From the NCBI RefSeq assembly GCF_037042905.1, contig NC_087251.1:24368001-24432000 (forward strand): a stretch of DNA of 64,000 nt, given 5' to 3'. Shown piece after piece: positions 1-60,882 of the stretch (positions within the stretch are counted from its first letter, which is position 1; every line of letters starts with the position of its first letter). Both the position numbers and the translations under genes were made by a program. The notes beneath the pieces are model-generated. The model made no database searches, was not told where the DNA came from, and saw only the letters and a list, made by a program, of their open reading frames with translations. The DNA is from Lytechinus pictus (taxonomy: Eukaryota).

Positions 1-735
1 ACACAGCGAAGCGACCAAGCTTGTCATTTGGGCACTTTTTGGAGTTTTAAAAGTGAAATACGAAGGCTTTCGTGCACACTTTTGGTGAATTTTGTGATAA
101 TTTTCAATAGAAAAATAAGTTTTTTAAAATTTAGGGGTCATCATGCCCCCGTATTGTCGTTGCGAGCATTTTGGGGCCAGGGTGAAATCGCCCCAAACGC
201 CTCAAACAGACACTCCAAAATGTATTTGAAGTGCATTATTAGAACTGAAACTTATCTCTACACCAGGAAAAATTAACTTAAAAAAAAGCAACAAGAAATA
301 TTTATAAAAAGTAGAAGGGCCTGTACAAGTACACTGATATTTCACTCTCTCAGCTCATATGCACTTGATCGACTTCCATCGAGGATTCGGGCTAAATTCC
401 GCCCGCCACTTCCGGGGACCAACCAACGTAGTATTTCGATGAAGAGCACTCCGTCGATTCACCGGTTGTCCCTACAGTACACGCGCGCCTATGGGGGTTG
501 TGAACTGTAGGAAAAATCGTATAAAATTACACTTTTTGATATTTCTACGAAGACGAAGTTATATAGAAAATGAAGAATATTACAATCAGACCATATCCCT
601 AGAAAATTGCCTCAAGAAATGTCATTATGAAGAGGAAATGGACAAAAATTTGTGAAGAAAAATCACGAAAAAGGAAATCGCATCATGAATATTCATATCA
701 TGGGCGGTCCCACATTTGCATGTTATAGCGAGTTT

Positions 736-1500
736 TCCATTATTTAATAAATAATGGCATTATTTAATAAATAATGGCATTATTTAATAAATAATGGCAT
801 TATTTAATAAATAATGGCAAACTGTAAAAATTGTTTATAAATAATGATTATTTATAAATAATGGGATATTGAAACAAAATTATTATTTATAAATAATGAA
901 GTAGATATTTCATTATTTAACAAATAATCTTTATTTATAAATAATGGAAAACTCGAACATTAAATAATGATTATTTATAAATAATGAAGTAGACGTTTTC
1001 ATTATTTAACAAATAATCATTATTTATAAATAATGGAAAACTCAACAAATTATTTATAAATAATGAAAAACAAATAATCATTATTTATAAATAATGAAAA
1101 ACAAATAATCATTATTTGTAAATAATGAAAAACAAATAATCATTATTTATAAATAATGAAAAACAAATAATCATTATTTATAAATAATGAAAAACAAATA
1201 ATCATTATTTATAAATAATGAAAAACAAATAATCATTATTTGTAAATAATGAAAAACAAGTAATCATTATTTATAAATAATGAAAAACAAATAATCATTA
1301 TTTATAAATAATGAAAAACAAATAATCATTATTTATAAATAATGGAATGTCGAACTATTATTATTTACAAATAATGAAGTATTACTTGGAATTATATATA
1401 AATAATTAGAAATGATATTTTATATAATAGTAGTTATTTACAAATAAAATGTAAATTATATATAAATAATAGTTATTATTTAATAAATAATGATTATATA
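736..1500. repeat. AT-rich minisatellite of palindromic units (20-bp units ~740-820; 31-bp units ~1050-1345)
   Basis: 4 x ttatttaataaataatggca; ~9 x ttatttataaataatgaaaaacaaataatca; degenerate copies on both flanks. Confidence 0.92.
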
Positions 1501-2329
1501 ACAAATAATTGTTCTATATAATATTGGTACATTCGGCGCCTCATAGAGAAGTGAATGTCTATATCTGTTTGTGCTAATGATGAAAAACTCCACATGAAAT
1601 AGATTTTACATACTTTGGACAATTTATATCTTATGATTTGATAGAGATTATATCAACTTACCAAATGCAGATATGCCACGTATGATCGATAAAAAATCCT
1701 CTAGAATTTGTCCTCTTGAAACAAAAAGGGTGGCTATATTGGCCAAAATATTATGTAAGGATTTTTTAAAATCATTAACCGGAAAGTGTCGTTCCGGTAA
1801 AATAAAAATGACCATCTAAAGACACACCCAATGTTGTCTGTTATTTTCATCACAGGCTTCATAGGTACATGAATACCGGTAGTGTAACAAAACAAAACTA
1901 ATTAACTTTGACGAGTGACAGGAGGAGATGTTACAGATCTTCAATGTGAATACCATTTCTTGGATTGTAACCGACCCCTCCCTCTTCATCACAGTTGGCT
2001 AAACCAAATGGATGCAATAACTGACAAGGTTAAAGAAAGAGACTTCACTGATTTTTCCGCATCACAAAATGTTTGACGGCGCGTGATGGAGTTGGACAAG
2101 GCCTAGGTGACTGTACTCTGTTCAGTTGGATACTGTCTCTGATGCAGAAAGATGATCTGGACTATGTAACAGTGATGACCAATGCAACAGAAGGTAGAGC
2201 TAGGGTGGTTCTTTTATACCTACCCCCAAATCACTGATCAGGAATTATACATATCAATAATAAGTTTATTCAGGTGTTGTATACACCACATCACTTAATC
2301 ATTTAATATCTCTATGTTGTTCCAAATTA

Positions 2330-23405: not shown

Positions 23406-26400
23406 TGAAATTGGGGAATTTTTCAAAGCAAATTCTTCATACCAACCCCCATACACACATAATAAATCAGAAGAAGTAAAAAAATATATATCTCAGTATT
23501 AACTCTTCTCTGGCCTTACCTGTGATAAGTTGCATTTGAAAGTAGATATAGAGCATTTGCTCACCCCCCCCCCCACCTCAATCGATCATCAAATATCCAA
23601 AGGGAATTTTCACCCTCCCATACATAGGCATGATTTATTCAGCTTTCTAAAATTCCCCCATTTCTCACTGAGTAACTCTGAAAACAGTGAGAGAAGAATG
23701 ATGATCGCCCCAGCCCGCCCATCATTTATCTTGTCTCGTTATCCCGTATTACGCATCTCCCTCAAATTTGCTAATGTCTAAGGTGCTCTATCACATTATT
23801 TTATTTTAAAAAAAGGCACAGGACACTTGCCTGTAGCGTACTGTCTAAAAGTGAAGAGCATTTAAATGGAATCAGCTTATATACAAGTGAATTGGGAGTT
23901 TGTTTGAAGAATTGGTTAATTCACTATTTTATCCGCCATCTGTGCATGACTGAAGCCTAAGGGAACGTGGCTGCAAACTGGATCATTAGTTCCATTCATA
24001 AGACAACCATTTAAAGGGACAGTTAACATGTGTTCCAACAAAATTTGCTTCCTACATGGTTTTAAATTTCTAAACACCTGAAGGAAATTTGCTGGATAAA
24101 ATAATTCTTTTTTTTTTAAGTAATTGTATTTGATCCCTGATAAATTAGAGGAGAACATTGGGTGTAAAATTCATGTTACAAATCAAGGATCCATTAATTT
24201 ACCATGAAGTGATGTTTTAGTTCTTATTCTATTCTCCAGTTATTGATATGTAAAGTAATCCCATACATATATCCATTTTCTCTAATCCCTTCAACATACA
24301 GACACATATGACTACACACCATAACAGAATGGCATTATACATTGTTAGAATACATTAATCATTTATTCTTAATCAAAATTCTGGTTGCAGTACATCTCAT
24401 AAATTTTGAGTCATACACAAATGAAGAGTCATTATTCATATATACAATACCCCAAAATCATATCAAATTCAACTTTGTAGTACAAAAGAAAAAGAAATAA
24501 AAACAAAATTCTACCCAGGTGAACTATTATATTCAACATGAGTGCATTGTAAAAAATACATTGCAAGAGTAGAAATGCTTCATAAGGAGAAACATGTATT
24601 TTTTTCTATATATCTTTAAATATATATAGAACTTGGACAAATATATGTGCAATGAAATAAATGTATCAGTATTTCTCATCATAGCTATGACACTCATGAC
24701 AGTATGAAAAGAAATATAACAATGTGTCTTGATTTTCTTTAACAATACTAAAATTATTATACACAACAAATGATTCAGAAAATAAGATTCCATTCAAATT
24801 AATAATCATTAATCAACACAAACACAAAAAACAACAATGATGTAAGAATTCAAGAATTTTGACCAGGGCAATGGCCCAATCAAAATCTAATAAAATGATA
24901 ATGACTTCATGAACAAATTTTTCTCAAGTACAGAGTGATAAGTGCATAAATGGGGAAATGGTCATATTAAACTAAGGTAAGAAGTGTCTTCCAGAAATCC
25001 ATTGATGCTAAAAAGAAATCATCATCTCCTTTTCAAGTATTTATGTATATAAAATTCTTCTTACATTAGAAGAACAAAAATTTCCACTTACCTTTAAATT
25101 TTTAATTGCTTTCACAAGATATTTTCTTATCTGGGTGCATGTGTATGTTCATAATCCTGCCTGAACAATACAGCATAAAAATAAATTGATATCTATTTTT
25201 TTTTATTAAATGGTCATTTACAGCATGGAATCCTTAACCAATCCATAACAGACTACAAGACTTTGAATCATTACATACATTTGAGTTGGATTTAATTAAA
25301 AGGTAGTCCAAACTCCCTAAAAATCATCATGTTGTAGAATGAAATATTCATCTTTTGCTATTGTTACTTTGTATTAATGTAAATGAGCATTCATGACAGA
25401 AAAAAACAAACAAATACAATTTTCTCATTATATTAGTTTCTCAGCCGAAACCAGACCCTGTACGATACTTGCAAACCTATTCAATTTGAGATTTGATAAA
25501 CGTTGTGATATAAATACAGAACGACAGCGAGTGAATGAGTTCATGTTACCAATCAATCGAAAGCTTCATCTTCCTTAAATATTGAGGGCAGCAAACCTAT
25601 TGGATCAAATGAGCCTTTCCTGATTCAACATAATGCTCATTTCTCAATAAAGTAAATTGCACAATATCAAAGGAGAAGTCACTGACAATACACATTAATC
25701 AGAAATGTCTAGGGCACTAGAGATTTGTTTTGTATCATTTAAGCGTTTTTCAAGTTTACATAAAGAGAAAAGCAAGAGGTTGCATGCTTCCAATTAAGTA
25801 AATAATTTGATTTTGTTACTCAATTCTTGCATTAATCCTAAATGTAATTACAAAGAGAAAAAAGAACGAACAAACAATTCTCTGAAAAGCGGGTATTCTC
25901 GTATAGTAAATTCATGTGGCTAATTGTCAATACAGTGTAAAAAAAATGGCTTAATGTAAACCCAGCATCATTCTTTCTCATCAAACATTTGAACATTACT
26001 TTTAGCACCAATATCACAAGCAAATAGGAATGGGGCATTACTGTTTATAAAGAATGCATAAAAAATGAGTTTCAACCATTCCAGTTTAACTAGATTCTTC
26101 TGTACATACTGATACTTTTAACTGCACAGATGCATTTACTAGTATCTAAAGGGGAATCTAGACATGGTAATAAAATGATTTATGTGAATTAAAACGGAAA
26201 ATAAGACAAACGAAATTGTAAGAGTTTGAAAGAAATCAGACAAGGATTAAGATATCTATGGCCATTTGAAAAAGTGAATTGCTATAAATTTCGACAAGTG
26301 GAATAGGGAAAACCCCAGTCGGCATGTCGATATAAATTTCCCTTTTTTCCGAAGCAGCATGTCCATATGGGGAGTAATAAAAATATATCATAGACAGCGG

Positions 26401-26428
26401 GTCTCTGAAGATTTGCATGGTGGTACAG

Positions 26429-28048
26429 ATAATGAAGAGGCTTTACGGTTCATCACGTGGTTAATCCTAAACAGGATGGTGGAGAGATGAAAAAAGATAA
26501 AAATTGAAGCCAAGATAGAGAAAGACGAAAGCGAGAATTAATAACGTAGAGTAGATGAGGAAGTTCTGGCAGCGATGAATAGGTGAGCAGTTGAAAAGAG
26601 TTAGATGGGTTGAGATGAGTTGTCCTGGCTGCAGCGAGTAGATGAGTGGCAACGAGTAGATGCAATGACGAGTCTGAAAAATCTGGGCAGCTTGACTCTC
26701 CATCCTCAGGAGTAGGTGAGTGCGGACGGCAGGGGTATTAGTGGCTGTTATACAGGCTTGGATGTAATCCGGTGACGTCTGAGCTGGTGGTGTGGCAGGT
26801 CTTTGGTAGTGGTGTTATTTAGCAGGAAATTCTTGGCACGAAAGTAGACTGGTGGCCATTGTGTGGGTGAAGGTTATAGCGTGGAGTTTGCATCAGCAGA
26901 GGGCATGGTAATCTTTGTGCTGAGTCCTTAGTGCTGCATTGTATGGGTGGACTGCCAGGGTGGTGCTTGGGTGGGCGAGTGTTGGTAGGATTGGTGAAGG
27001 TGCTGGCATGAGTGGAAGAATTGGCCAAAGTTTGTGATGAAAAGGCTATTGTCCCAGCTTGACAATGGCTGATTTGTCCCAGTCCTCGAGTCACTGGTAG
27101 CTTATGTATTCCTTGAGTTTAGTGTCATATTTTCCAATTTTATTGATGTAAACTTTGCCAGAGTCTTATGGATCTTGTAAATGCCAGCTTGTTTGTGGAT
27201 GGATGTACATGTATGTCCTTGTGCTAGTAAGAGTATCGAGGGACTCTTAGATGAGGATCGGTGTCTAATGAGAAATTTGCCTGAACAAGGATACGCTGTA
27301 GATGATGTGAAGTCTTGCAGAGGTAAAGATAAACTATGGTGACGGAGGGATGGTGGAGGCTTGATAGGACTATTAGGTCTGGTGATGATCTTCTTCCCTG
27401 GGTATTGGTTGATGGAGTTGAGAGTGTTGGTTACATGGTTTAGTTCCTGATGGAGATGATCCTGGTCATTTAGTTGATAGGGTCATCTAAAGAGGGTGTT
27501 CGGGATTCATTGAAAATGGAGGTATGATGATGCGAGTGGAAGTTGAGGTAGTCGTCAGTGTGAGTGGGTTTCTGGTAGACGAGATAGGGAACATGGTGTC
27601 TTCTTGATGAGAACATCTAGGAAGGGAATACATGTAGCATCGTCTTGTTCTGTTTCTCTGGTAAATTAACATGAAGGTGGTGGTCAATGATGTGATCTAG
27701 GAAGTGGTGGTGTGAGACCAGATGACAAATGTGTTGTTGCCATATTCTAGCGAGAGAGTAGCGGTCTTAAGGACTTGGTGTTTGTAGTGGCGGTAGAAGT
27801 TAGATCGCCATTGGAAAATGTTGAAGCATGCTAGAAGATTGTAGATATGGTCTTGAGTGGGATAAATTCTGGTGCTGAGGTCTGGGCTGGAGATGAGCCA
27901 TTGCTTGTAAATGCTGCAAGTTTCATTGATGAGGATGCTGGTGAAGAGCAACACATCAAACTAACTAGTGTTGGTGGGGCAATTGTGGTCTTAAAGATGG
28001 AGTTAACAAAGTGCTGTGTTAATGATTTGGTGCTTGGAAAGGGTGCAT
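26429..28048 (-). mobile_element. Second decayed Penelope-like copy, inverted relative to 28049-29820
   Basis: Its reverse complement aligns by eye along the + copy (e.g. LMQTPRYNL.P.NGHQS.FVPR in both ORF tracks; shared 3' end gaaccgtaa.(g)cct...catta). It carries internal deletions. Confidence 0.88.
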
Positions 28049-29820
28049 AATTGCAGCCACCGACACTCTAGTTAGCTTTGATGTTTGCTCACTCTACATC
28101 AATGTACCAATCAATGATGCTTGCAACATTATAGAGCAATAACTGAGCTCCGATCCAGAATTCAAAGCACCGGAACTATTCTCAGTCAAGACCAAATCTA
28201 CTATCTTCTCATCACATGCTTAAATACAAATATATTCAGATGGTGCTCTGACTTCTACAGCCACCTGAAAGGTACAGCCATGGGTTCTCCACCGTCCCCC
28301 GTAGCCAATATCTTTATGAACCACTTCAAACACCAAGTCGTTAACAGCACTGACAAATGTCCTTCTGTCTTGCTAGAATATGTTAACACATTTGTCATCT
28401 GGCCTAACCAACGCTTTCGAGATCACATCAACGACCACCAAATTGACATTAATTCCCATGAAGACCAATCTTGATGATGCTATGCACTTCCTAGATGTTC
28501 TCATCATGAAGACACTATGCTACCCATCTCATCAAGTCTACCAGAAACCCTCTCACACTGACTGCTACATCAACTTCCACTCTCATCATCATACCTCCAT
28601 TTTTCAGTCAATCCCAAACACCCTCATCAGATCCCCTTATCAACTAAATGACCAGGGTCATCTCCATCAGGAACTCAACTTTGTGACCAACACTGTCACT
28701 ACCATCAACCAATACCCAGGGAGGAAGATCATCACCAGACCTAATAGTGTCATCAACAACCATCCAGTGACTCTAATATCCCTACCAACCATCAAGCCTC
28801 TACCATCCCTCCTGTTACCATAGTTTTCCTTACCTCTGCAAGACTTCACATCAACAACAGCACATGCTCTGTTCAGCCAAAATTCTCATTAGGAACAGAT
28901 CCTCGTCCAAGATTCACTGAATCCTCTTATTCACACAAGGACAAACACCCATCCAACAAACAGCCAGGCTTTTACAAGATCCATGCAAGTGACTGCTACA
29001 AAATTTACATCGGGAGACAGGAATAGACTGACACCAGACGAAAGGAACACAGAACCTACCAATAACTCGGCGAATGGATCAAATCAACCGCCATCAAGCA
29101 CACACAGCACAACCCCAACATCAACTGGGACAACAGCCATCTCATCACCAGCATACCTTACTGGCACTTAAGAAGGATCTCAGAAGCAAATGAGATTCAC
29201 CAACATGACTCCACAACACAGGCCTCCACATCAACATTTGGCACCCAATCCTACACCAAGACACAAACCCATCTAATACTAACACTCCAACTATGGCCAC
29301 TCCTTCCACTCAAACCAGCACCTGCACCAATCCTATCAATGATTATTCACCCATCCAAGGACCACCCCGCTAACCCTCTCACACAATCCAGCACCACAAA
29401 CCCAGCACTAAGATTACCAATTCCACCGCTGATGCAAACCCCACGCTATAACCTACTCCCACCCAATGGCCACCAGTCTGCTTTCGTGCCAAGAAGTTCC
29501 CACCAAATAGTGCCACTACCGACGATCTGCCACACCAGCGGCTTAGAAGGCATCGGATTACACCCAAGTCTGTTTAACGGCCACTGATACCCCTGCCATC
29601 CAAACTCACTTAAATCCTGAGGATGGAGAGTCGAGCTGGCTGGATGACCGAGACTCCTCAATACATCTCCTCTCCACTGCTCATCTACTCACTGCAGCTA
29701 GGACTTCTCAATTCATCTCAACCCATCTTATTTTCTCAACTGGTCATCTACTCATCGCTGCTAGGACTTCTCTAATTTTCTCAACTACCCACACAGTGAA
29801 CCGTAATCCTTCCCATTAAC
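28049..29820 (+). mobile_element. Decayed, 5'-truncated Penelope-like retroelement (RT + GIY-YIG endonuclease)
   Basis: Frameshifted translation gives LVSFDVCSLYINVP, KGTAMGSPPSPVANIFM, YVNTFVIW (YVDD motif decayed), FLDVLI, VYQKPSHTDCYINFHSHH, then PGFYKI(P)C..C..IYIGETG, in the order typical of Penelope/Poseidon ORFs. Confidence 0.9.
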
Positions 29821-32800
29821 ATACATGGCATAATTCCATATCTGTATGTCACCAGAAGCGAGACCTTTGAAAAAGATTCATTTGAGTCACTTTGTGAATT
29901 GGAGGAATGGAGGAATTGTCCTTACCTAACATGAAAATGATTTCATCTACGGATGAATGGACCAAATGGAAATCTCCATAGATATAGTGACTGAAAGCTT
30001 TTATCACTTGAATATTCATAACATACTTATTCATTACTTATCTTTACATTTCTTATTAATTCCCCCCCCCCCCCCACTTCTTAAGTCTTGTCATTCTAAT
30101 CAGCTAAATGTATATTAATTTTCATGAACAATGAAACTGTATTCTGGTTTTGCCTTGAGAGATTTAATTTCAATAAATTTATAATTTATTTGCCTTGTAT
30201 TATTCCGTGGAATTGTTTCAAACTTTCACTCATCTGCTTCGGCTTTTTCCTTGTTTTAAAGCAATTTTCAACTTGGGTTGAATTTCCCTTTAATGTACGA
30301 TAAGTATTGTGAACATAACAATTAACAGTTTATATAGCAATTATCATGGTTTAGAATACCCTCTTTGAAATTTACAAGATGCCCTCTTCTGTGGTTAATT
30401 GTAAAAAGGCCGCTATTTCCTAGGTATAGCTTGATCTTTTTGTGAACCCCACCCCCTCCCTACTGTTTCCATTGCACCCACTTTTCATACCATCCACTGA
30501 TCACTTTAAAGACATAAAAAATTTAAAAGGCTAAATGCAAGATATAATCAACCGGAGTGCATTACCTGACTATGCATGTAAAATTTCAGTAAAGTTATAA
30601 AACTGAGGGAGTTTCCCTACTTGATGGCTTTGCTGAATATAAATGAGATGCAATGCGAGGCTCAAACGATATTAACCTTTCCCATACATTTTAAGGATCT
30701 CATGGAAAGCAATCAGTTTAAAGCTTGTATCAAGTGTTGGTAAATCTACATATAATTCATTTCAATGTGTTAATTCATCACCAATGATGAAAGATTATAT
30801 CATGTGAAAGACACAATCTCCAATTTCATGTATAATGGTATTAAAGTTTATTATTACCCTAAACTATCTTAAGTTTAAAAAAAGAAATTGGTCCCTGATA
30901 ACTTTTTTTCATTTCAGTATCACTTTAAAAAATGGAATGGGAATTTTATGAGACAAGTTATATACTATTAACTGGATCAAGGAGGCCTTTTCAAGTTTTC
31001 CATAATTAATCGGCTAAATTGCCCACTCTTTGAATAATTGACAAGTCAACAAAACTAAGAAGTTTATGAAAAATTCTGAGCTAAGTATGGAATAGATTAA
31101 AATGTAATACATGGGATAGGAATATTGATAGGGATATCAGTATTGTGTACAAATGAATGTACAAGACTGCAAAATATTAATCCCCCCTTTAACAATTCAG
31201 CCTGTTTGTTTTAAATTCTACTTTCAATAAAATATTGATGACCATGGAATTGTCTTATTGATACGTTCTCAAAGACATCAATACATTCTCATTCACAGAC
31301 AATTTCAACTACAATTATACCGACGTTGTAAGCATTAATCAACCAATTTATCAATTAATTCTTGTCACTGAACTGGAGGACATAGATAAAAAGGTAGTTG
31401 AAATGGGTGAAAATTAGAATCATACAGGAAAATTAAACATGAGATTAATTTTGATGAAATGTACCTTGGAAAGTGTGAACAAGTCAATAAAATCCCTAAC
31501 AAAAACTAACCCTGGATTGGATCATGTTTTACCGCTGAGATTTTAATTACATTGTCGCAGTAACATGATGTGGGTCGGGGCACGTATCATGAACACGCAA
31601 GTAACTTGGAGCCGCCATTGTTTGTGTTACATATACTGTTGCCACGGCGACTATAAGATGCCTAGAAACACTATATGATGGCGATCAAACAACGCCTCTC
31701 GTCTGGTGGCATGTTGCTTTGCCCAACCCAATTGCAACACAAATAGAGGATCCTTAGATAGCATAGGGCTGCTGGGATGGAGAGAGGGCAGGAAAAGTGG
31801 ATAGGAAGAAGAGGAAAAGAAACAGGAAGTTTAACAAATTAGAGATAGAAAGGATGGATTTCAGGGAAAGGTAATACATACTCAGAAGAGAAACAGTAAG
31901 ATGTGGTCGGGGGGGGGGGGGGTGGTCAACAGCAGAAATACAAATACGCAAAAGTGACAATATATGACAAATAGGAAGAAAGTCAGAGAGATAGAGACCA
32001 ATCAGTTCATATAAAAGGCTGAAATATAATTGGAAAAAAAGAAAGCTGGATTCAGGGGCATTTACAATACTACATTTACTTTTATGCATGAAGGTCATTA
32101 TTCCACAGGATATTGGACAGAACTCCCTAGAAATATCACTTTATATATATGAATCTTCTAGTTGGTATATTAAACTACACACAAAATATATTAAATATAT
32201 TATCATGATCGGCTATGCCCATAACTACAGTGGACGCTTAGAAATGGACATAAGTAAGATAGCTGGAATACCACATCACTGTCAATGTCAGTAGAATATG
32301 AGCTTGAAGGAGGAGTTGAAAGTGAAATGGGCATGTCATAAGACGTAACATGGATTCTCAGGAAGAGATCAGTGATGGCATCATCCTCTCAATCCTATAT
32401 TGCCTGATCCGCTATTATTAGGGCTTATCAAAACATCTCGGGGATTACGCTCTGGTGTACTCTGCCAACAGTGCAGCTAAACCCAGGCCAATTTAGACCC
32501 GTCAGCTCTCCTAGCCTGCAACATGAATGCTCAAATTTCATATAGGGTCCGACTCTGACGGCTGAAATCACATGACTAGCACTTGCTGGTGTATACTTTG
32601 AGTGAGATATGAATTGTTCTGTGTTTGCAACCTAGTGGGGTATTGCATTGTGATGAAGAATAAGACACACTCACATTAGTACCCAATGTTTTTCATTCAA
32701 GTTATAAACATTAATGATTGCAACATGACAAAACTATAGGTGCAAATAAAGTCTTCTCACCTTCAGGTCATGATATACATCTTTTTTGCAAAGATAGCTT

Positions 32801-33269
32801 CTCAGTGGCTAGCTTTCAATGGCTTTCCACCTCAAAGATTTCATCAACTTAGGACAAAGAAATAATTGGATTTTAAAAATAAAACTTCAGTATTTTTTTC
32901 AATGAACGTGCAACATAGACAAGGTTTAATTCATCTTTAATCAGACCTTGCCCCTGGTCATGACATGATTATGCATCAAAGTCCCTCCACATCAAAAGGA
33001 AATTACTTCAACAACTCTGCCTATACTTTGATGTGGAAATTGAAAGTCCACATATTTCATGGAATACATTCAGGGATGAATTGCATGGAGGCGTAAAGGG
33101 TGAAAGGGTGCTTTCCCTACATTATGAGTATCCAATCTTCTCACTATAATATAAATCTAATGAATCGCATCTCCTACATCACAACTGAATGACAGAGGTA
33201 GATAACACCACATGGTCTGTTGGTTTAGGCACACTGCCCAATATTCCCTAGAGTGTTTGATATATTGGA

Positions 33270-34843
33270 TCAACTACTGTTCTGTACTGTAGTAGGTGGT
33301 CCACTTGACGTAACAGGCTTTGCTCGTAGGTCTAGTGGGGCAACCTGGCCTGGTGACTGCCTACCTGGACTCTTGTGAGAAGGGGATTTAGAGTTGGCAT
33401 TGAGGCCAAGAATGGACCTGCTGCCTTGTGTAGCATTCACAGGAGATTTACTTCCGTGGGCAGAACTTACAGTAGGCTTGCTCTGAGAAACACTTCCAGG
33501 AGATTTGGTGCTCAGTGTAGAGCCAACTGGAGACTTGCTGATTACAGTAACACTTACAGGAGATTTGCTACGATGTGCCGAGCTGACTGGAGATTTGTTA
33601 GTTATAACAACACTTACAGGAGACTTGCTACCATATGCTGCACCAACTGGAGACCTGCAAGCATTGGCAGGAGAGACGGGGGACTTGTTACGATGGACAG
33701 GGCTAATAGGTGAAACGTTGCTCTGAGGAGCAGCAATGGGAGTATCACTACTTTGAGTTTTACTAACAGAGGATTTTCCAGGATTGGGAGAAGTAACTGG
33801 GGACTTGCTGGTTTGGGTGGCACTTACAGGAGACTTGCTGCCATGGACAGACATAACAGAAGATTTGCTGCTAGATGCAGCACTGACAGGAGATTTGCTA
33901 CGTCGACCAGAGCTAACAGGTGACTCACTACGGTAAAAAGAGCTAATAGGTGACTTGGCACGGCGTGGTGAATATTGAATAGGAGACTTTGGTGGTTCTC
34001 CCGACTGTCCCATAATTTTAAGTTTTGACTGCTGCAGTAGTGCTTGTGTTTCCAATTTCGAAGACTGTGTGTTCAAGGTACAAGGCTGTTTTCCCGATTC
34101 TATTTTCATAGTCACACTGTTATCAGGGTTTTTATGCTGAGCAACATTTCCTTGAATCGCTGTTTTTTCAGGGTTGCTTGTCACCAAGAGTCTTGTGTCT
34201 TTGAGCACGGCAGTAGTAGGTAATTGTCCAGTAGTCTGTTGGACACGCAATGTAGGGTTTGGATGAGATTCTTTGGGAGGACCATGCTTATCAGACTTGG
34301 CTATACTGATATGGTAAGATGTTTTCCCTTGATCTGCAGCTTTCTGGTTACTTACCACTGACAGGATTGATTTGTTAGGCATCTGACCTTTCACCATGGT
34401 CACTTCTTTGCCAGATACAAGTGTCTTCCTGAGAGTAGAATTAACATTGACTTCTCCTTTTATTGGACTAACAAGGGGAGAAGCTTTTCCTGGACTTGAC
34501 ACTTTAGGAGGTGAGTTCTTCACCTGAGTTCCATCTGAGTTTGATTTCAATGAAGTGGACTTTTCTATCCTGGGAGAGATCTTTGTTCCAACTGAACCAT
34601 CGCTTGTGCTAGATTCTCTAGGTGATTTACTTTCTTCTGTCTTTGAACCATCTCTGCTTTGCAATGGCTCAGGTTTTCCGGTTGTCATCTCTTCAGATGC
34701 TGGTTTGTGAGATGTCTGCGGAGCCATCTTTGCAGGAGATACTGAAGACCCAGGTATTGATTCTGTTGATGGAGACTTGAGTCCTTCTGATGTAGCTATG
34801 CTGGAAGGAGTGGCACTTGCTGGACTACTGGATTCTTGTTTAC
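33270..34843 (-). CDS. Large, probably terminal, coding exon of an unidentified gene; S/P/K-rich disordered region with ~20 x 10-aa KSPVS repeats and a C-terminal PLDLR motif
   Basis: The 485-aa ORF stays open upstream of the annotated ATG (KQESSSPASATPSSIATSEGLKSPSTESIPGSSVSPAK-MAPQ...) up to a strong acceptor tctgttttattttccag|GT at 34843 (phase 1). Stop TGA at 33270-33272. By far the longest ORF in the window, with coding-like composition. Confidence 0.85.
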
Positions 34844-37800
34844 CTGGAAAATAAAACAGAACAGTGAATTAAAGAAAAGACCACAATCACAACTGACAAT
34901 ACTTTTTATTATGAACAAGTGCCCAACTATATACTTTTTTCTATAGTAACAGTATAAAAGCAAAAGTTTCTCTCAGAAAGTTTTTATTGCTTTTTAAAAA
35001 AACTTGCTTCGTCCTTTAAATCTCAATCCCTCCACAAAATCTCTTATACTGCTGGTTCTAACATTTGTAGAAAATAAAAATGTCCATATTTCTTCAACAA
35101 AAGCAAATTCAACAAGATAAAAGATAGAGAAGACAATGTCAGTAAGCTTAAATTTAACCAAATTTTTATTATTTATTATCACATTTCTGTAAGTACAGTC
35201 AGAAGGAATAAGATTGTGAACATGGAAGTACATGTTAGCAAGATAAACTTGGTAGGAGAAAAAAAAGAGCAATTCATAAGTTTTTCCCTCAACTCCAAGG
35301 GTGAGCTGAGCCTTTAAAAGCATCCTGCCACCCATCCCATTCATTGTAGCAATGCATCGCGGCTAAGCAGTCACATGGGTATTTTCAGAATAAGCACACG
35401 CAACTGCCATCACATGATCACTTCAATTCCTGACATCATGCATCCCGGGGTCTCTAACCACGCCACCTTCTCTTGTTTTCTCTCTCCATCTCTTCCAGTG
35501 CTCTCTCTTTCTCTTATCCCTGCTCATTGTACCCATCCACCTCTTCTCCTCTCCTTAGCCCTCTTCTTTGACATCCCTCTCTCTCTCCCGCTACTCTCTC
35601 AACGGAATCCAGGGGCCTGCTAGTGCTGCTAGTGAACATTTGTCGTATTTTGGCTCGCAGCCAGACCTTTCATCATCATCATCACTGGCATCATCATCAT
35701 CGTCCTCCTCTTGATCGTGGCGATCCCTCTTGGTTGTCATTATGCATGCATGTGGCGTGCCCCCTGGCCGCGTGTGCTCCTTCCTGCCATGGTGATTTGC
35801 ATGTAGAATCGGATCAAGCTATCATTCAACCGACTGCTTGCATTCAATCAGTCCTCATTACCAATGCACATCAACATCCTTGGCTCTCTATCTATCTATC
35901 TATCTCCTTCTTTCTGCTTACTATGCAGGAAACAATTCCTGTTTTTCTCAGATTTTTTTCTGAGCAAATTCACATTTACAATCCGGAAAGACAATTAGGA
36001 AGGGTGAAAGAAGTGTGTAGCAAGGTCTCTATTTGAACATGCTACATACCCAATTCATACATTTCTTAAACATTTATTTTGGGATAATAAATATTCATAT
36101 AAAATAAGCCTCTAAACATCTTTATAAGAAGTTGTTTTGAGCTTGCAAAGAATAAAACAACTAAATAACCCCCCCCCAAAAAAAAAAAAGATTAGAAGCT
36201 TGAATGTTTCTAAAATTGTTAATATCAGTAATAATAGTAATGATGTTCATGTAGATTTAGCTGCAAATCTTTCAGTTATTAGAAAAGGAAAATTTAATTT
36301 ATCAAGATTAAGAATAATACCTGAGATGTTGATAAATGTCAGGCAAAGCCTCCAGTAGAATCCCCACCCCTAGCAGTCTACCTTTCCCTTATTATACATT
36401 CCTATCAACGTGTGCAACTGTATCCACTCTGCATCTTTCATTCAGAAAATGGATCGTTGCCATCACTTTCATTCTGGTTGCATCTTTCTCAATTGCTCAA
36501 ACCAATTTCCTTGAGAATCAGTACAGGTATCCCTGCAGGCATAAACCACTTGGCTGTTACACAGTATCACCATACCAACTCAAATTCTCCAGGAAAGTGT
36601 TCAAATAGCAAATCAAGCAAACAAGCTAATGATCAAATGGATTCATCCTTAAATGGTATCCTTGCCCTTCTACATTGGGAAAAAATGAGACAAGCTTTCT
36701 GGTTTAATCAAACAGTGGAAGGCTTGTCAGGTAAAAAAGTATAAGCTATTTCTTGGAAGAAGTTTCATGTAGGAAGGAATTTACTGAACCCACAAGACGA
36801 TTGACTGCAAAAACGTCAAAATAACGCCTTTGATATACAAAATATCCCCACGAGATTAATGCAAACTTAATTTGGCATGAACAAAAATAGAAAACATAAA
36901 GCCTGTTGCTTAGAAGTCAAAGTATTAGAGTAAAACAAATGCTGATGAACTCTCAAGCTTGTTAAAATAACAGAAACATTTGAATTACAAATACATTCAT
37001 CCCTTCACACACATCTACAAAAAAAAAAGCATATTGGCTGTGTAAAACATAATTGCAAGAACTTATTCAAGGCTTCATGTATCAATCATTGACTCATGAG
37101 ACAACAAAATAATCCTTTATTTTTGCAAATGGTGTACCAGTAACTTCATGGGGGGCAATGTGGAGATTACAAAGATGCTTTTTATACTAACATTTCTTCA
37201 TGCATTTTATGACAATGATCAGTATAGATCACTGAACTTTTAAAACAAACCGATTTGGGGAAGGGAAAGGGGTTTCCCCCCCCCCAATTTGTTGAAGTTC
37301 AACATCATTCATTGCTAGACAAATATAGGATGCAGGATTACTTATATTGAAAATGGTATCCCGCTTTTAGAGAGAATGAAACCATAAATGAGAGAAAATA
37401 CGACTGGATAAAAAACAAAATAATTAATGAAGACGAACACAACCTATGCAGAAGCAGAATGATACAAAATGCTGAACATAAATCCTTCTTGAGGCGAAAG
37501 CACAAACATACAAGGGAATATAGATAATCACCCTACTTTGGCTCATCTGTTATTTTATCACCCTCTTGCCATTCAAGTAGTTTATGATAGTGTGGGCATA
37601 CAAATACCCTAAATGTGGAGGCTCACTAATGCAGGCATCTTTGCTTCCTCTCCAATAAACCACTGAGAAAAGATTCTCTGGAACAAAAACTTTGGATTTA
37701 GAGCTCACTAGAGCTCACAAAAGACCCATATATTCCACTCATATCTTGTACATAATATACTTTCTCTTCATCCACGATAAAAACAGAACTAGGCCTACAT

Positions 37801-48813: not shown

Positions 48814-49265
48814 AGGTGTGTTCAAAGTTGATTTTCAAATTTAAACAGCAACATGAATCATGATTAAAAACTCAAATACAGAACACGAACAGCGGTGCAC
48901 TGTTCAGTGTCGAAAATATTAAGTTGATTTCTGGTTAGCGCAGCTTTAGTGCGCAATTTGACCCAGCAAAAGAAAGGTCAATTCTGGCACCTGCTTGTGT
49001 AGGCTTCACTGCAAGAGCTAATTTAAAGACGTTTTGAAACTCAATCATGTTCATGATCAGCTGAGCTGATCACGTTTACAAAAGCATCTTTTTCGACGTA
49101 TAAATTTTCTCCGAACCATGATTTGAAAGATGTTTACTTTTACAACCGGGAATGGAGGACATTGAATACACCCTTTGTTTCTCATTATATCCGTGTTTTG
49201 TAATCCCGTTTTGAATCATGATTCATGTTGCCATTTAAATTTGGAAACCGACATTAAACAAACCC
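48814..49265. mobile_element. MITE with ~50-bp imperfect TIRs
   Basis: aggtgtgttcaaagttgattttcaaatttaaacagcaacatgaatcatgatt ... aatcatgattcatgttgccatttaaatttggaaaccgacattaaacaaaccc; AAT on both flanks. Confidence 0.8.
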
Positions 49266-60329: not shown

Positions 60330-60882
60330 TACCCTTTTTACACAGGATTTTCTTAACCCCGGACTATCGCTAACCCCGTACTATCCTTAACCCCGTACTA
60401 TTTTTTTTCCTTTTCACACATGCCAAATTGTTATCGCTAACCCCGGATAAGGAATGCTTGCTTTTTACACACGAAACTCGCTAACCCCGGACTAGTGGTT
60501 TTTGTCGATCATTCGTAGTACAAGTACTTCACTCGTACCTTTTTACACACGCTAAAATTTCCTTAACCCCGTACTATAGGTGGGGCTAAATTGCCATTTA
60601 GCCCCACCTATAGTACGGGGTTAAGCTTAGCCCACTTTCGTTTTACACTAGCGATCTTAACCCCGTACTATCGCTCTTAGCACCGCAATTGCTGGGATAA
60701 CCCTGCTTTTTTGCAGGGCCAAATAATCCCGTACTAAAGGTGGGGTTAGCCCACTTTGCAAAAATGCTGTGTAAAAAGAAAGTGGGCTAAGCTTAACCCC
60801 GTACTATAGGTGGGGCTAAATGGCAATTTAGCCCCACCTATAGTACGGGGTTAAGGAAATTTTAGCGTGTGTAAAAAGGGTA
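60330..60882. mobile_element. MITE with TAA TSD and nested internal hairpins (Harbinger-like)
   Basis: taa|taccctttttacaca ... tgtgtaaaaagggta|taa; many taaccccg(t/g)acta repeats. Confidence 0.9.

What the first reader, a model, noticed from the sequence alone, without database searches (positions are those of the whole stretch)
26429..29820. 3.4-kb foldback made of two Penelope-like copies truncated at almost the same point and joined 5'-to-5'
Seen: both arms end at the same 3' terminus facing outward. Their 5' truncation points, just upstream of the RT SFDV motif, differ by only ~60 nt, and the arms abut with no spacer. Known: Penelope-like elements often produce inverted, partially duplicated insertions. 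Inference: this is one insertion event (fold-back or template switch). The substantial arm-to-arm divergence could then date the insertion in the way LTR pairs do, and read-through transcription would give long dsRNA (endo-siRNA/ADAR substrate).
Basis: partly seen in the sequence, partly recalled or inferred. Interest (0 to 1): 0.7.

Follow-up and report, generated by a model that had tools for sequence, protein, structure and literature searches.

The report
Penelope foldback inside Ino80 3' UTR
Two decayed, back-to-back copies of a Penelope jumping gene, likely from one old insertion, lie in the long untranslated tail of a sea-urchin Ino80 gene, where the RNA likely folds into a hairpin and is likely edited by ADAR; this is a clean example of known things rather than a new kind of system.

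Summary
Two 5'-truncated Penelope-like (RT + GIY-YIG) copies are joined head-to-head at about 28046, with a 58-nt loop. The arms are 81% identical over 1403 aligned columns.

Arm differences fall evenly on codon positions (39/46/48), whereas a pair of active PLE lineages at similar identity gives 49/43/178. The arms therefore came from one template family, not two subfamilies. One insertion event is likely but not proven. Head-to-head arms are standard PLE anatomy (7 of 25 related loci), although near-symmetry is unusual.

New context: the foldback lies 3.4-6.8 kb past the stop codon of a minus-strand Ino80 gene. Stranded RNA covers both arms. T>C sites (A>G on the transcript) outnumber A>G sites 93:20 and 78:21 in two RNA runs, against 76:70 in a relative's DNA, which is an A-to-I editing signature. 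Most sites could not be located. The related species carries both arms.

LTR-style dating is unsafe: a 300-nt tract is only half as diverged as the rest, possibly through conversion. No sign of selection on pairing was found. Verdict: real, ordinary in kind, modest interest.

The parts
26429..28045 (-). Left arm: 5'-truncated, decayed Penelope-like copy (RT C-terminal half, GIY-YIG, 3' region, pLTR); outer end uncertain, 26400-26429
   Evidence: relative's loose end at 26400
28046..29820 (+). Right arm: 5'-truncated, decayed Penelope-like copy, starting 58 nt further 3' in the element than the left arm; outer end uncertain beyond ~29770
27988..28045 (.). 58-nt single-copy loop between the paired arms; it is left-arm element sequence, with a small TGCA-TAAT-TGCA palindrome at 28043-28054
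   Evidence: junction alignment; DNA fold z -3.7, 0 of 200 shuffles as stable; sequence
27393..28019 (-). RT remnant, left arm (stops, frameshifts, catalytic YVDD motif lost)
28050..28718 (+). RT remnant, right arm (stops, frameshifts, catalytic YVDD motif lost)
27025..27171 (-). GIY-YIG endonuclease remnant, left arm (partly deleted)
28961..29221 (+). GIY-YIG endonuclease remnant, right arm
   Evidence: 48% to P0003 605-692
29617..29660 (+). Decayed hammerhead-like motif in the pLTR (CUGAGGA with an ATG at helix II; GAAA core not intact)
   Evidence: sequence; layout as for PAc in PMC11167929; no Rfam hammerhead hit; fold not significant
26668..26709 (-). Decayed hammerhead-like motif, left arm (9-bp helix II predicted, GAAA core not intact)
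27303..27603 (-). High-identity tract (90% vs 78.5% elsewhere), paired with 28508-28853; candidate arm-to-arm conversion
33270..34842 (-). Terminal coding exon of Ino80 (stop at 33272-33270; SKSPV repeats)
   Evidence: 63% to S. purpuratus INO80 XP_795650.4, E 1e-146; aa 1537-2044 of 2047; RNA contig leaves the genome at 34844
24350..33269 (-). Inferred long 3' UTR of Ino80 (up to ~8.9 kb) containing both arms; AATAAA at 25207 and 24367
   Evidence: stranded RNA depth and contigs; signals; no single molecule spans it
28405..28845 (-). Three candidate A-to-I sites: 28405 (UAG), 28516 (UAG, opposite C), 28845 (AAG)
   Evidence: T>C in RNA runs X21, X22 and X1, absent from the relative's DNA X18; contexts; no same-individual DNA

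Best explanation
This is a head-to-head pair of dead Penelope-like copies, likely from one old insertion, in the inferred long 3' UTR of Ino80, where the mRNA likely folds into a hairpin that ADAR likely edits. Mechanism, step by step. (1) Inferred: the element's GIY-YIG endonuclease nicked the target, and the RT copied the RNA from its 3' (pLTR) end and stopped just upstream of the SFDV motif. (2) Inferred: the cDNA folded back over a ~58-nt loop, primed on itself and was copied back to the 3' end, giving two arms identical at birth. (3) Shown: the arms then diverged without coding constraint (K2P 0.22), about four times the difference between this species and a relative that has both arms. 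(4) Inferred: one 300-nt tract was later re-homogenised. (5) Shown: minus-strand RNA covers both arms, contiguously with the last Ino80 exon. (6) Predicted: about 1200 imperfect inter-arm pairs form. (7) Shown: the RNA has a strand-biased A>G excess; placing it in the arms is only partly shown. No host function is shown, and the default is a tolerated passenger.
For: Codon-position differences are 39/46/48 in 233 codons and 51/60/54 in 284; synonymous single changes are 20 of 72 and 24 of 96, against 0.235-0.238 expected under neutrality. The control pair L036/L045, at 79% identity, gives 49/43/178 and 143 of 184 synonymous (Fisher p 2e-8 and 2e-13). At most 18-32% of arm divergence arose under coding constraint. 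Decay is split evenly: 30 codons where only the left arm matches relatives vs 27 for the right. The offset is 58 nt, against 366-2214 nt in the 7 of 25 non-redundant related loci with an upstream inverted arm. RNA depth on the exon's strand is non-zero in 24 of 25 (X21) and 25 of 25 (X22) bins from 25035 to 35200, and about zero from 23407 to 25034. An X1 contig spans the junction (27877-28565). T>C:A>G is 93:20 (p 2e-12), 78:21 (p 7e-9) and 36:18 (p 0.02) in RNA, and 76:70 in DNA. Of 40 shown rows, 4 are absent from the relative's DNA; 3 of these are T>C in the right arm, in UAG/UAG/AAG context. The cleanest read carries a median of 10 other differences at 25 in-arm rows vs 3 at 15 outside rows (X21; rows share reads). 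The MFE fold has 1230 inter-arm pairs out of 1334.
Against: A flat codon pattern also appears between separate copies of one family, so a single event is not proven. No target-site duplication was found and the outer termini match only marginally. A junction microhomology is possible but not demonstrated. Six of 61 conserved codons depart the same way in both arms, against 14 single-arm departures; about half look like CpG decay by inspection, and the rest could mean later duplication or conversion. Only 40 of 760 difference rows were shown, so most T>C sites are unlocated. About 6% of each raw run was read (depth 0-8). X21 and X22 differ from the window at many sites and have no matched DNA. 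No single read or contig spans exon to arms. PAc extends both target strands in vitro, which supports the two-cDNA rival.
Confidence: 0.68

Rival explanations
1. One insertion event, but two cDNAs: the PLE protein nicked and primed both target strands at the RNA's 3' end, both cDNAs stalled near the same place and were joined at their ends. The present-day consequences are the same.
For: PAc cleaves and extends both strands from the same RT start sites and is predicted to be a dimer (PMC11167929). It explains why both outer ends are 3' termini. The 7 related loci have very unequal arms. A 79-nt GT..AG-like segment occurs only in the left pLTR, which would fit two differently spliced RNAs.
Against: It needs two independent truncations within 58 nt; none of the 7 other loci comes closer than 366 nt. 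The GT..AG fit is imperfect, and large deletions are common in these arms.
Confidence: 0.3
2. A single arm inserted, decayed for a time, and was then duplicated in inverted form by a DNA-level template switch or fold-back repair.
For: Six of 61 conserved codons carry the same departure in both arms, including non-CpG ones such as Ala to Pro at a 91%-conserved column; 4 of the 6 lie outside the high-identity tract.
Against: Head-to-head arms are routine products of PLE insertion. No flanking DNA is significantly mirrored (p 0.42). The shared departures may be CpG decay or family-specific states, since no close consensus is available.
Confidence: 0.13
3. Two independent insertions of the same young family, the second landing at the 5' end of the first.
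For: The codon test cannot exclude it, and no target-site duplication frames the pair.
Against: It requires abutment with at most ~6 nt unassigned, opposite orientation and near-equal truncation by chance. No other copy is found in the 64-kb window.
Confidence: 0.1
4. The T>C excess is not editing of this hairpin but comes from alleles, or from transcripts of other family copies laid on the arms at the 85% threshold.
For: X21 and X22 share many alleles with the relative; 112 of 280 and 100 of 288 laid reads are under 90% alike; high-copy relatives pile on 28698-29511 in the relative's DNA.
Against: Alleles and paralogue differences are strand-symmetric (76:70 in DNA; A>G 20, C>T 16, G>A 19 in X21). 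Reads in the arms lie almost wholly on one strand across both oppositely oriented arms. The three located sites have ADAR-type contexts.
Confidence: 0.12

Closest known systems
Endonuclease-containing Penelope-like elements (Penelope/Poseidon type; D. virilis Penelope, Anolis PAc, Adineta Pen2)
   Same: RT followed by a C-terminal GIY-YIG; a pLTR with a hammerhead-like motif and an ATG at helix II; strong 5' truncation; an inverted 5'-truncated copy adjacent at the 5' end; head-to-head junctions with palindromes (PMC8557442, PMC3846280, PMC11167929).
   Different: The arms are almost equal in length (58-nt offset vs 366-2214 nt in 7 related loci). Both are dead and about 20% apart. The clade was not placed on a tree.
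Inverted-repeat 3' UTRs edited by ADAR (IR-Alu type; hyper-edited repeats across Metazoa)
   Same: Two inverted copies of one repeat in one transcript, with a strand-biased A>G excess. Sea-urchin editing is 86% in repeats (PMC9989829), and Penelope is massively edited in lizard (PMC5625713).
   Different: A single 3.4-kb foldback probably born as a hairpin, rather than two separate SINE insertions; old and imperfect (longest helix 29 bp). Effects on the mRNA are untested.
Penelope inverted-repeat siRNA sources in transformed D. melanogaster
   Same: Rearranged Penelope copies with long inverted repeats yield siRNAs matching the inverted regions (PMC3681739 passages).
   Different: Those arms are new insertions; these are 81% identical, so poorer Dicer substrates (inference). 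No small-RNA data were seen here.
L1 twin priming (recalled, not tested)
   Same: An inversion at the 5' end produced during target-primed reverse transcription.
   Different: L1 twin priming gives mostly non-overlapping pieces (recalled); here the same 3' ~1.6 kb is present twice and both outer ends are 3' ends.

Membership tests
EN+ Penelope-like element | PLE-type RT followed by a C-terminal GIY-YIG endonuclease in one ORF | tested here: met
   Both arms match P0003 and P0011 across the RT and EN in that order; Pfam RVT_1 and GIY-YIG on those relatives. The arms' own fragments gave no Pfam hit.
EN+ Penelope-like element | Cys/His motif around the endonuclease (CxC after YKI; conserved His) | tested here: met
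   Decayed remnants align to the relatives' YKIPCDCGKVYIG; a relative's contig continues with the intact motif at 28982.
EN+ Penelope-like element | Hammerhead ribozyme in the pLTR | tested here: inconclusive
   CUGAGGA plus a helix-II layout in both arms, but the GAAA core is decayed; no Rfam hit among 4227 families; fold z 0.25 and 0.63.
EN+ Penelope-like element | Partial tandem or inverted 5'-truncated arrangement | tested here: met
EN+ Penelope-like element | 30-40-nt tail at one end; optional target-site duplication | tested here: inconclusive
   Outer ends too decayed; no duplication longer than 5 nt.
Penelope/Poseidon clade | Phylogenetic placement of the RT with named reference elements | not tested
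   No named reference sequences were fetched; domain order and hammerhead layout are only consistent with it.
Single-event inverted PLE insertion | Arms derive from one template family | tested here: met
Single-event inverted PLE insertion | Arms are sisters against other genomic copies | not testable with these tools
   No genome held; the 80 loci match the arms only over ~57 nt.
ADAR-edited inverted-repeat 3' UTR | Both arms in one mature transcript | tested here: inconclusive
   Contiguous same-strand coverage and tiled contigs, with one spanning the junction, but no molecule spanning exon to arms.
ADAR-edited inverted-repeat 3' UTR | Strand-specific A>G excess in RNA, absent from DNA | tested here: met
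   93:20, 78:21 and 36:18 in RNA vs 76:70 in the relative's DNA; the DNA is not from the same individuals.
ADAR-edited inverted-repeat 3' UTR | Edited sites cluster in the paired arms | tested here: inconclusive
   Only 40 of 760 rows shown; 3 of the 3 RNA-only T>C rows lie in the right arm.
Endo-siRNA hairpin locus | 21-23-nt small RNAs from the arms | not testable with these tools
   No small-RNA run among the 23 listed.

The most novel reading that the evidence does not exclude
A retrotransposon-born 3.4-kb hairpin has been domesticated as a dsRNA control element of the mRNA of an essential chromatin remodeller: kept across species, refreshed by arm-to-arm conversion, and used through ADAR editing and alternative polyadenylation to set Ino80 mRNA retention or stability.
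Probability: 0.1. Interest if true: 0.65.

Novelty: new member of a known kind. Interest (0 to 1): 0.38.

Why it matters
The structure is ordinary for Penelope-like elements, and editing of inverted repeats in UTRs is ordinary for animals. The locus is still useful in three ways. It gives a defined, probably heavily edited long hairpin in the mRNA of a conserved gene in an echinoderm, where such substrates are little characterised. Near-symmetric arms are an informative extreme for the open question of how PLEs make inverted ends (self-priming vs priming on both strands). It also shows that arm divergence is not a safe clock. If the hairpin regulated Ino80, it would be a case of PLE domestication.

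Tried and rejected
Whole-genome copy survey and tree: no genome held. Rfam at E up to 10: 6 weak hits, none a hammerhead. Pfam on six arm ORF fragments and on the X-read-through: no hit. Word-index protein search with one arm fragment: 0 of 156 candidates. First metagenome scan with P0003: 28 stretches, none confirmed. The 80 loci of the second scan were too distant for a DNA tree.

Different-subfamily origin: rejected. Selection for pairing on the transcribed strand: not seen, G:U 67 vs A:C 73. Target-site duplication and mirrored flanks: not found. Upstream Ino80 exons in the window: none even at E 5. A metabolic-labelling artefact for T>C: rejected by reasoning, as it would read A>G on the + strand for a minus-strand RNA.

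The run search listed no indexed holder on record as RNA; X1 is taken as RNA because its contig leaves the genome at the splice acceptor. Earlier scan findings: nothing returned. Literature: a search for INO80, 3 UTR, inverted repeat, A-to-I editing, sea urchin and Penelope (at least 4 of 6 terms) returned 1 paper, which does not mention INO80.

Full report
1. Observation. Self-comparison of the window finds the inverted pair as its two strongest hits, and GC skew flips from +0.39 to -0.36 across it. The arms are 81% identical over 1403 aligned columns (K2P 0.22), with 32 indels. The right arm begins at 28046, in register with left-arm position 27987, so the left arm is 58 nt longer at its 5' end. 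That stretch is element sequence, not spacer (and inspection). Secure homology extends outward to about 26560/29770. The claimed common terminus is plausible but marginal (p 0.058), and no target-site duplication above 5 nt is seen.

2. Identity. A read-through of the right arm with X at stops finds 429 proteins at E up to 0.001. The best full-length one is a Lytechinus variegatus protein of 793 aa at 54%. Relatives carry RVT_1 and GIY-YIG, and both arms match them across RT and endonuclease. Both arms are broken by stops and frameshifts and have lost the catalytic motif. Each has a decayed hammerhead-like motif with an ATG at helix II, as described for the Anolis element (PMC11167929, parts 1-2 of 4 read). 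Rfam does not detect it, and its fold is not significant. No other copy lies in the window.

3. How usual is the arrangement? An inverted 5'-truncated copy at the 5' end is described as frequent in PLEs (PMC8557442, passages). Head-to-head junctions with palindromes were read as self-priming (PMC3846280, passages). Of 80 related loci, 29 had enough flank, forming 25 non-redundant sets. Seven of the 25 have an upstream inverted arm, with offsets of 366-2214 nt. The architecture is therefore ordinary, and the 58-nt offset is the unusual part.

4. One template or two? Differences between the arms fall evenly on codon positions: 39/46/48 in 233 codons framed in both arms, and 51/60/54 in 284 framed by the right arm. 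Synonymous single changes are 20 of 72 and 24 of 96, against about 0.24 expected under neutrality. Intact PLE lineages at 77-79% identity show about 65% third-position changes and 78% synonymous (L036/L045: 49/43/178; Fisher p 2e-8). At most 18-32% of the divergence arose under coding constraint. Different subfamilies are thus rejected. Separate copies of one family also give flat patterns (17/16/15 and 13/22/15), so one event rests on abutment, orientation and offset, not on this test. Against a simple history, 6 of 61 conserved codons depart identically in both arms, against 14 single-arm departures.

5. The clock. A 300-nt tract (27303-27603 / 28508-28853) is 90% identical against 78.5% elsewhere (K2P 0.11 vs 0.26). 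Permutation p is 0.0002 for the best of three window sizes, and 0.0004-0.02 after removing gap edges. The null assumes a uniform rate, so conversion is likely rather than shown. The relative's DNA (X18) covers both arms at 25-35 depth, similar to most flank bins (7-36, apart from two repeat-rich ones), except for two bins swollen by high-copy relatives. One contig crosses the left outer boundary (25886-26508), and another keeps a 32-39-nt piece that this left arm has lost (joints 27343/28795 and 27422/28731). No shown X18 piece spans the central junction (16 of 464 pieces shown). The relative differs by 254 of 4841 non-coding letters (5.2%), so the insertion is roughly four times older than that split. 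The orthologue test is passed, but at too shallow a depth to decide.

6. A minus-strand exon at 34842-33270 is the last coding exon of Ino80 (63% to S. purpuratus XP_795650.4; residues 1537-2044 of 2047). In two raw stranded RNA runs (about 6% of each read), reads lie in the same orientation as on the exon in 24 of 25 and 25 of 25 bins from 25035 to 35200, and fall to about zero below 25035. X1 contigs tile down to 24383, one crosses the junction, and one leaves the genome at the splice acceptor. AATAAA signals lie at 25207 and 24367. No joint removing an arm was listed, at low depth. Both arms are thus likely within a 3' UTR of 8-9 kb, but no single molecule proves it.

7. Editing. T>C places on the + strand (A>G on the transcript) number 93 vs 20 A>G in X21, 78 vs 21 in X22 and 36 vs 18 in X1, against 76 vs 70 in the relative's DNA (p 2e-12, 7e-9, 0.02 and 0.68). 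Only 40 of 760 rows were shown. Of their 14 T>C rows, 11 are also in the relative's DNA and are genomic. The other 3 (28405, 28516, 28845) are in the right arm, in UAG, UAG and AAG contexts, one opposite a C; that such contexts suit ADAR is recalled knowledge. X21 and X22 differ from the window at many sites, and there is no matched DNA. The folded minus-strand RNA has 1230 inter-arm pairs out of 1334, but only 6 helices of 20 bp or more, the longest 29 bp. G:U pairs (67) do not exceed A:C mismatches (73), so there is no sign of selection for pairing. Editing of inverted repeats is the metazoan rule, including in sea urchin and in lizard Penelope (PMC5625713 and PMC9989829, passages). siRNAs from inverted Penelope copies are known in flies (PMC3681739, passages). 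Minimal PLE hammerheads cleave weakly (PMC4209133, passages). No supplements were read.

8. Mechanism and odds. Shown: PLE identity, one template family, neutral decay, presence in a relative, transcription on the Ino80 strand, and a strand-biased A>G excess. Inferred: one insertion event (about 0.78), by fold-back self-priming over the 58-nt loop (about 0.47) or by two cDNAs primed on opposite strands (about 0.3); later DNA-level duplication (0.13); two insertions (0.1). Editing of this hairpin is about 0.85 likely. A host function is unshown (about 0.1).

9. Verdict. The dating idea is weakened. It is a new member of two known kinds; interest 0.38.

Noticed in passing
window 26467-26545 (minus strand): A 79-nt pyrimidine-rich segment with GT..AG-like ends is present in the left pLTR and missing from the right arm. 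It may be a retained PLE intron in one arm only, or an ordinary deletion; the fit is about 3 nt off.
   Followed up: partly
window 33270-34842: The Ino80 terminal exon encodes a long Ser/Pro-rich tail with repeated SKSPV motifs, also present in S. purpuratus. No other Ino80 exon is found in the window, implying a last intron over 29 kb.
   Followed up: partly
window 33854-33887: 38-46 reads per raw RNA run match only these 34 nt and continue as other sequence on both sides: another, more abundant transcript shares this stretch.
   Followed up: no
window 25419-33777: At many shown sites the raw RNA runs X21 and X22, labelled as the window's species, carry the relative's allele while X1 often matches the window: deep polymorphism or a distinct lineage.
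   Followed up: no
window 28698-29511: High-copy relatives in the related species' DNA match the right arm at 85% or more (summed depth 199-352 vs ~30), so the family is or was abundant there.
   Followed up: no
window 730-1521: AT-rich array that is both tandem and palindromic (67-74% self-matches on both strands).
   Followed up: no
window 60538-60879: 342-nt inverted repeat with two internal 64-nt near-perfect palindromes, MITE-like; a smaller inverted pair lies at 48815-48887 / 49192-49264.
   Followed up: no
protein P0006: A predicted protein joins a PLE RT fragment to MOV-10 helicase domains; probably a gene-model artefact.
   Followed up: no
L079 1997-5090 and L066 1-1978: Another long head-to-head PLE foldback (1.4-kb arms, 86% identical, 366-nt offset), the nearest analogue among the fetched loci.
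   Followed up: partly
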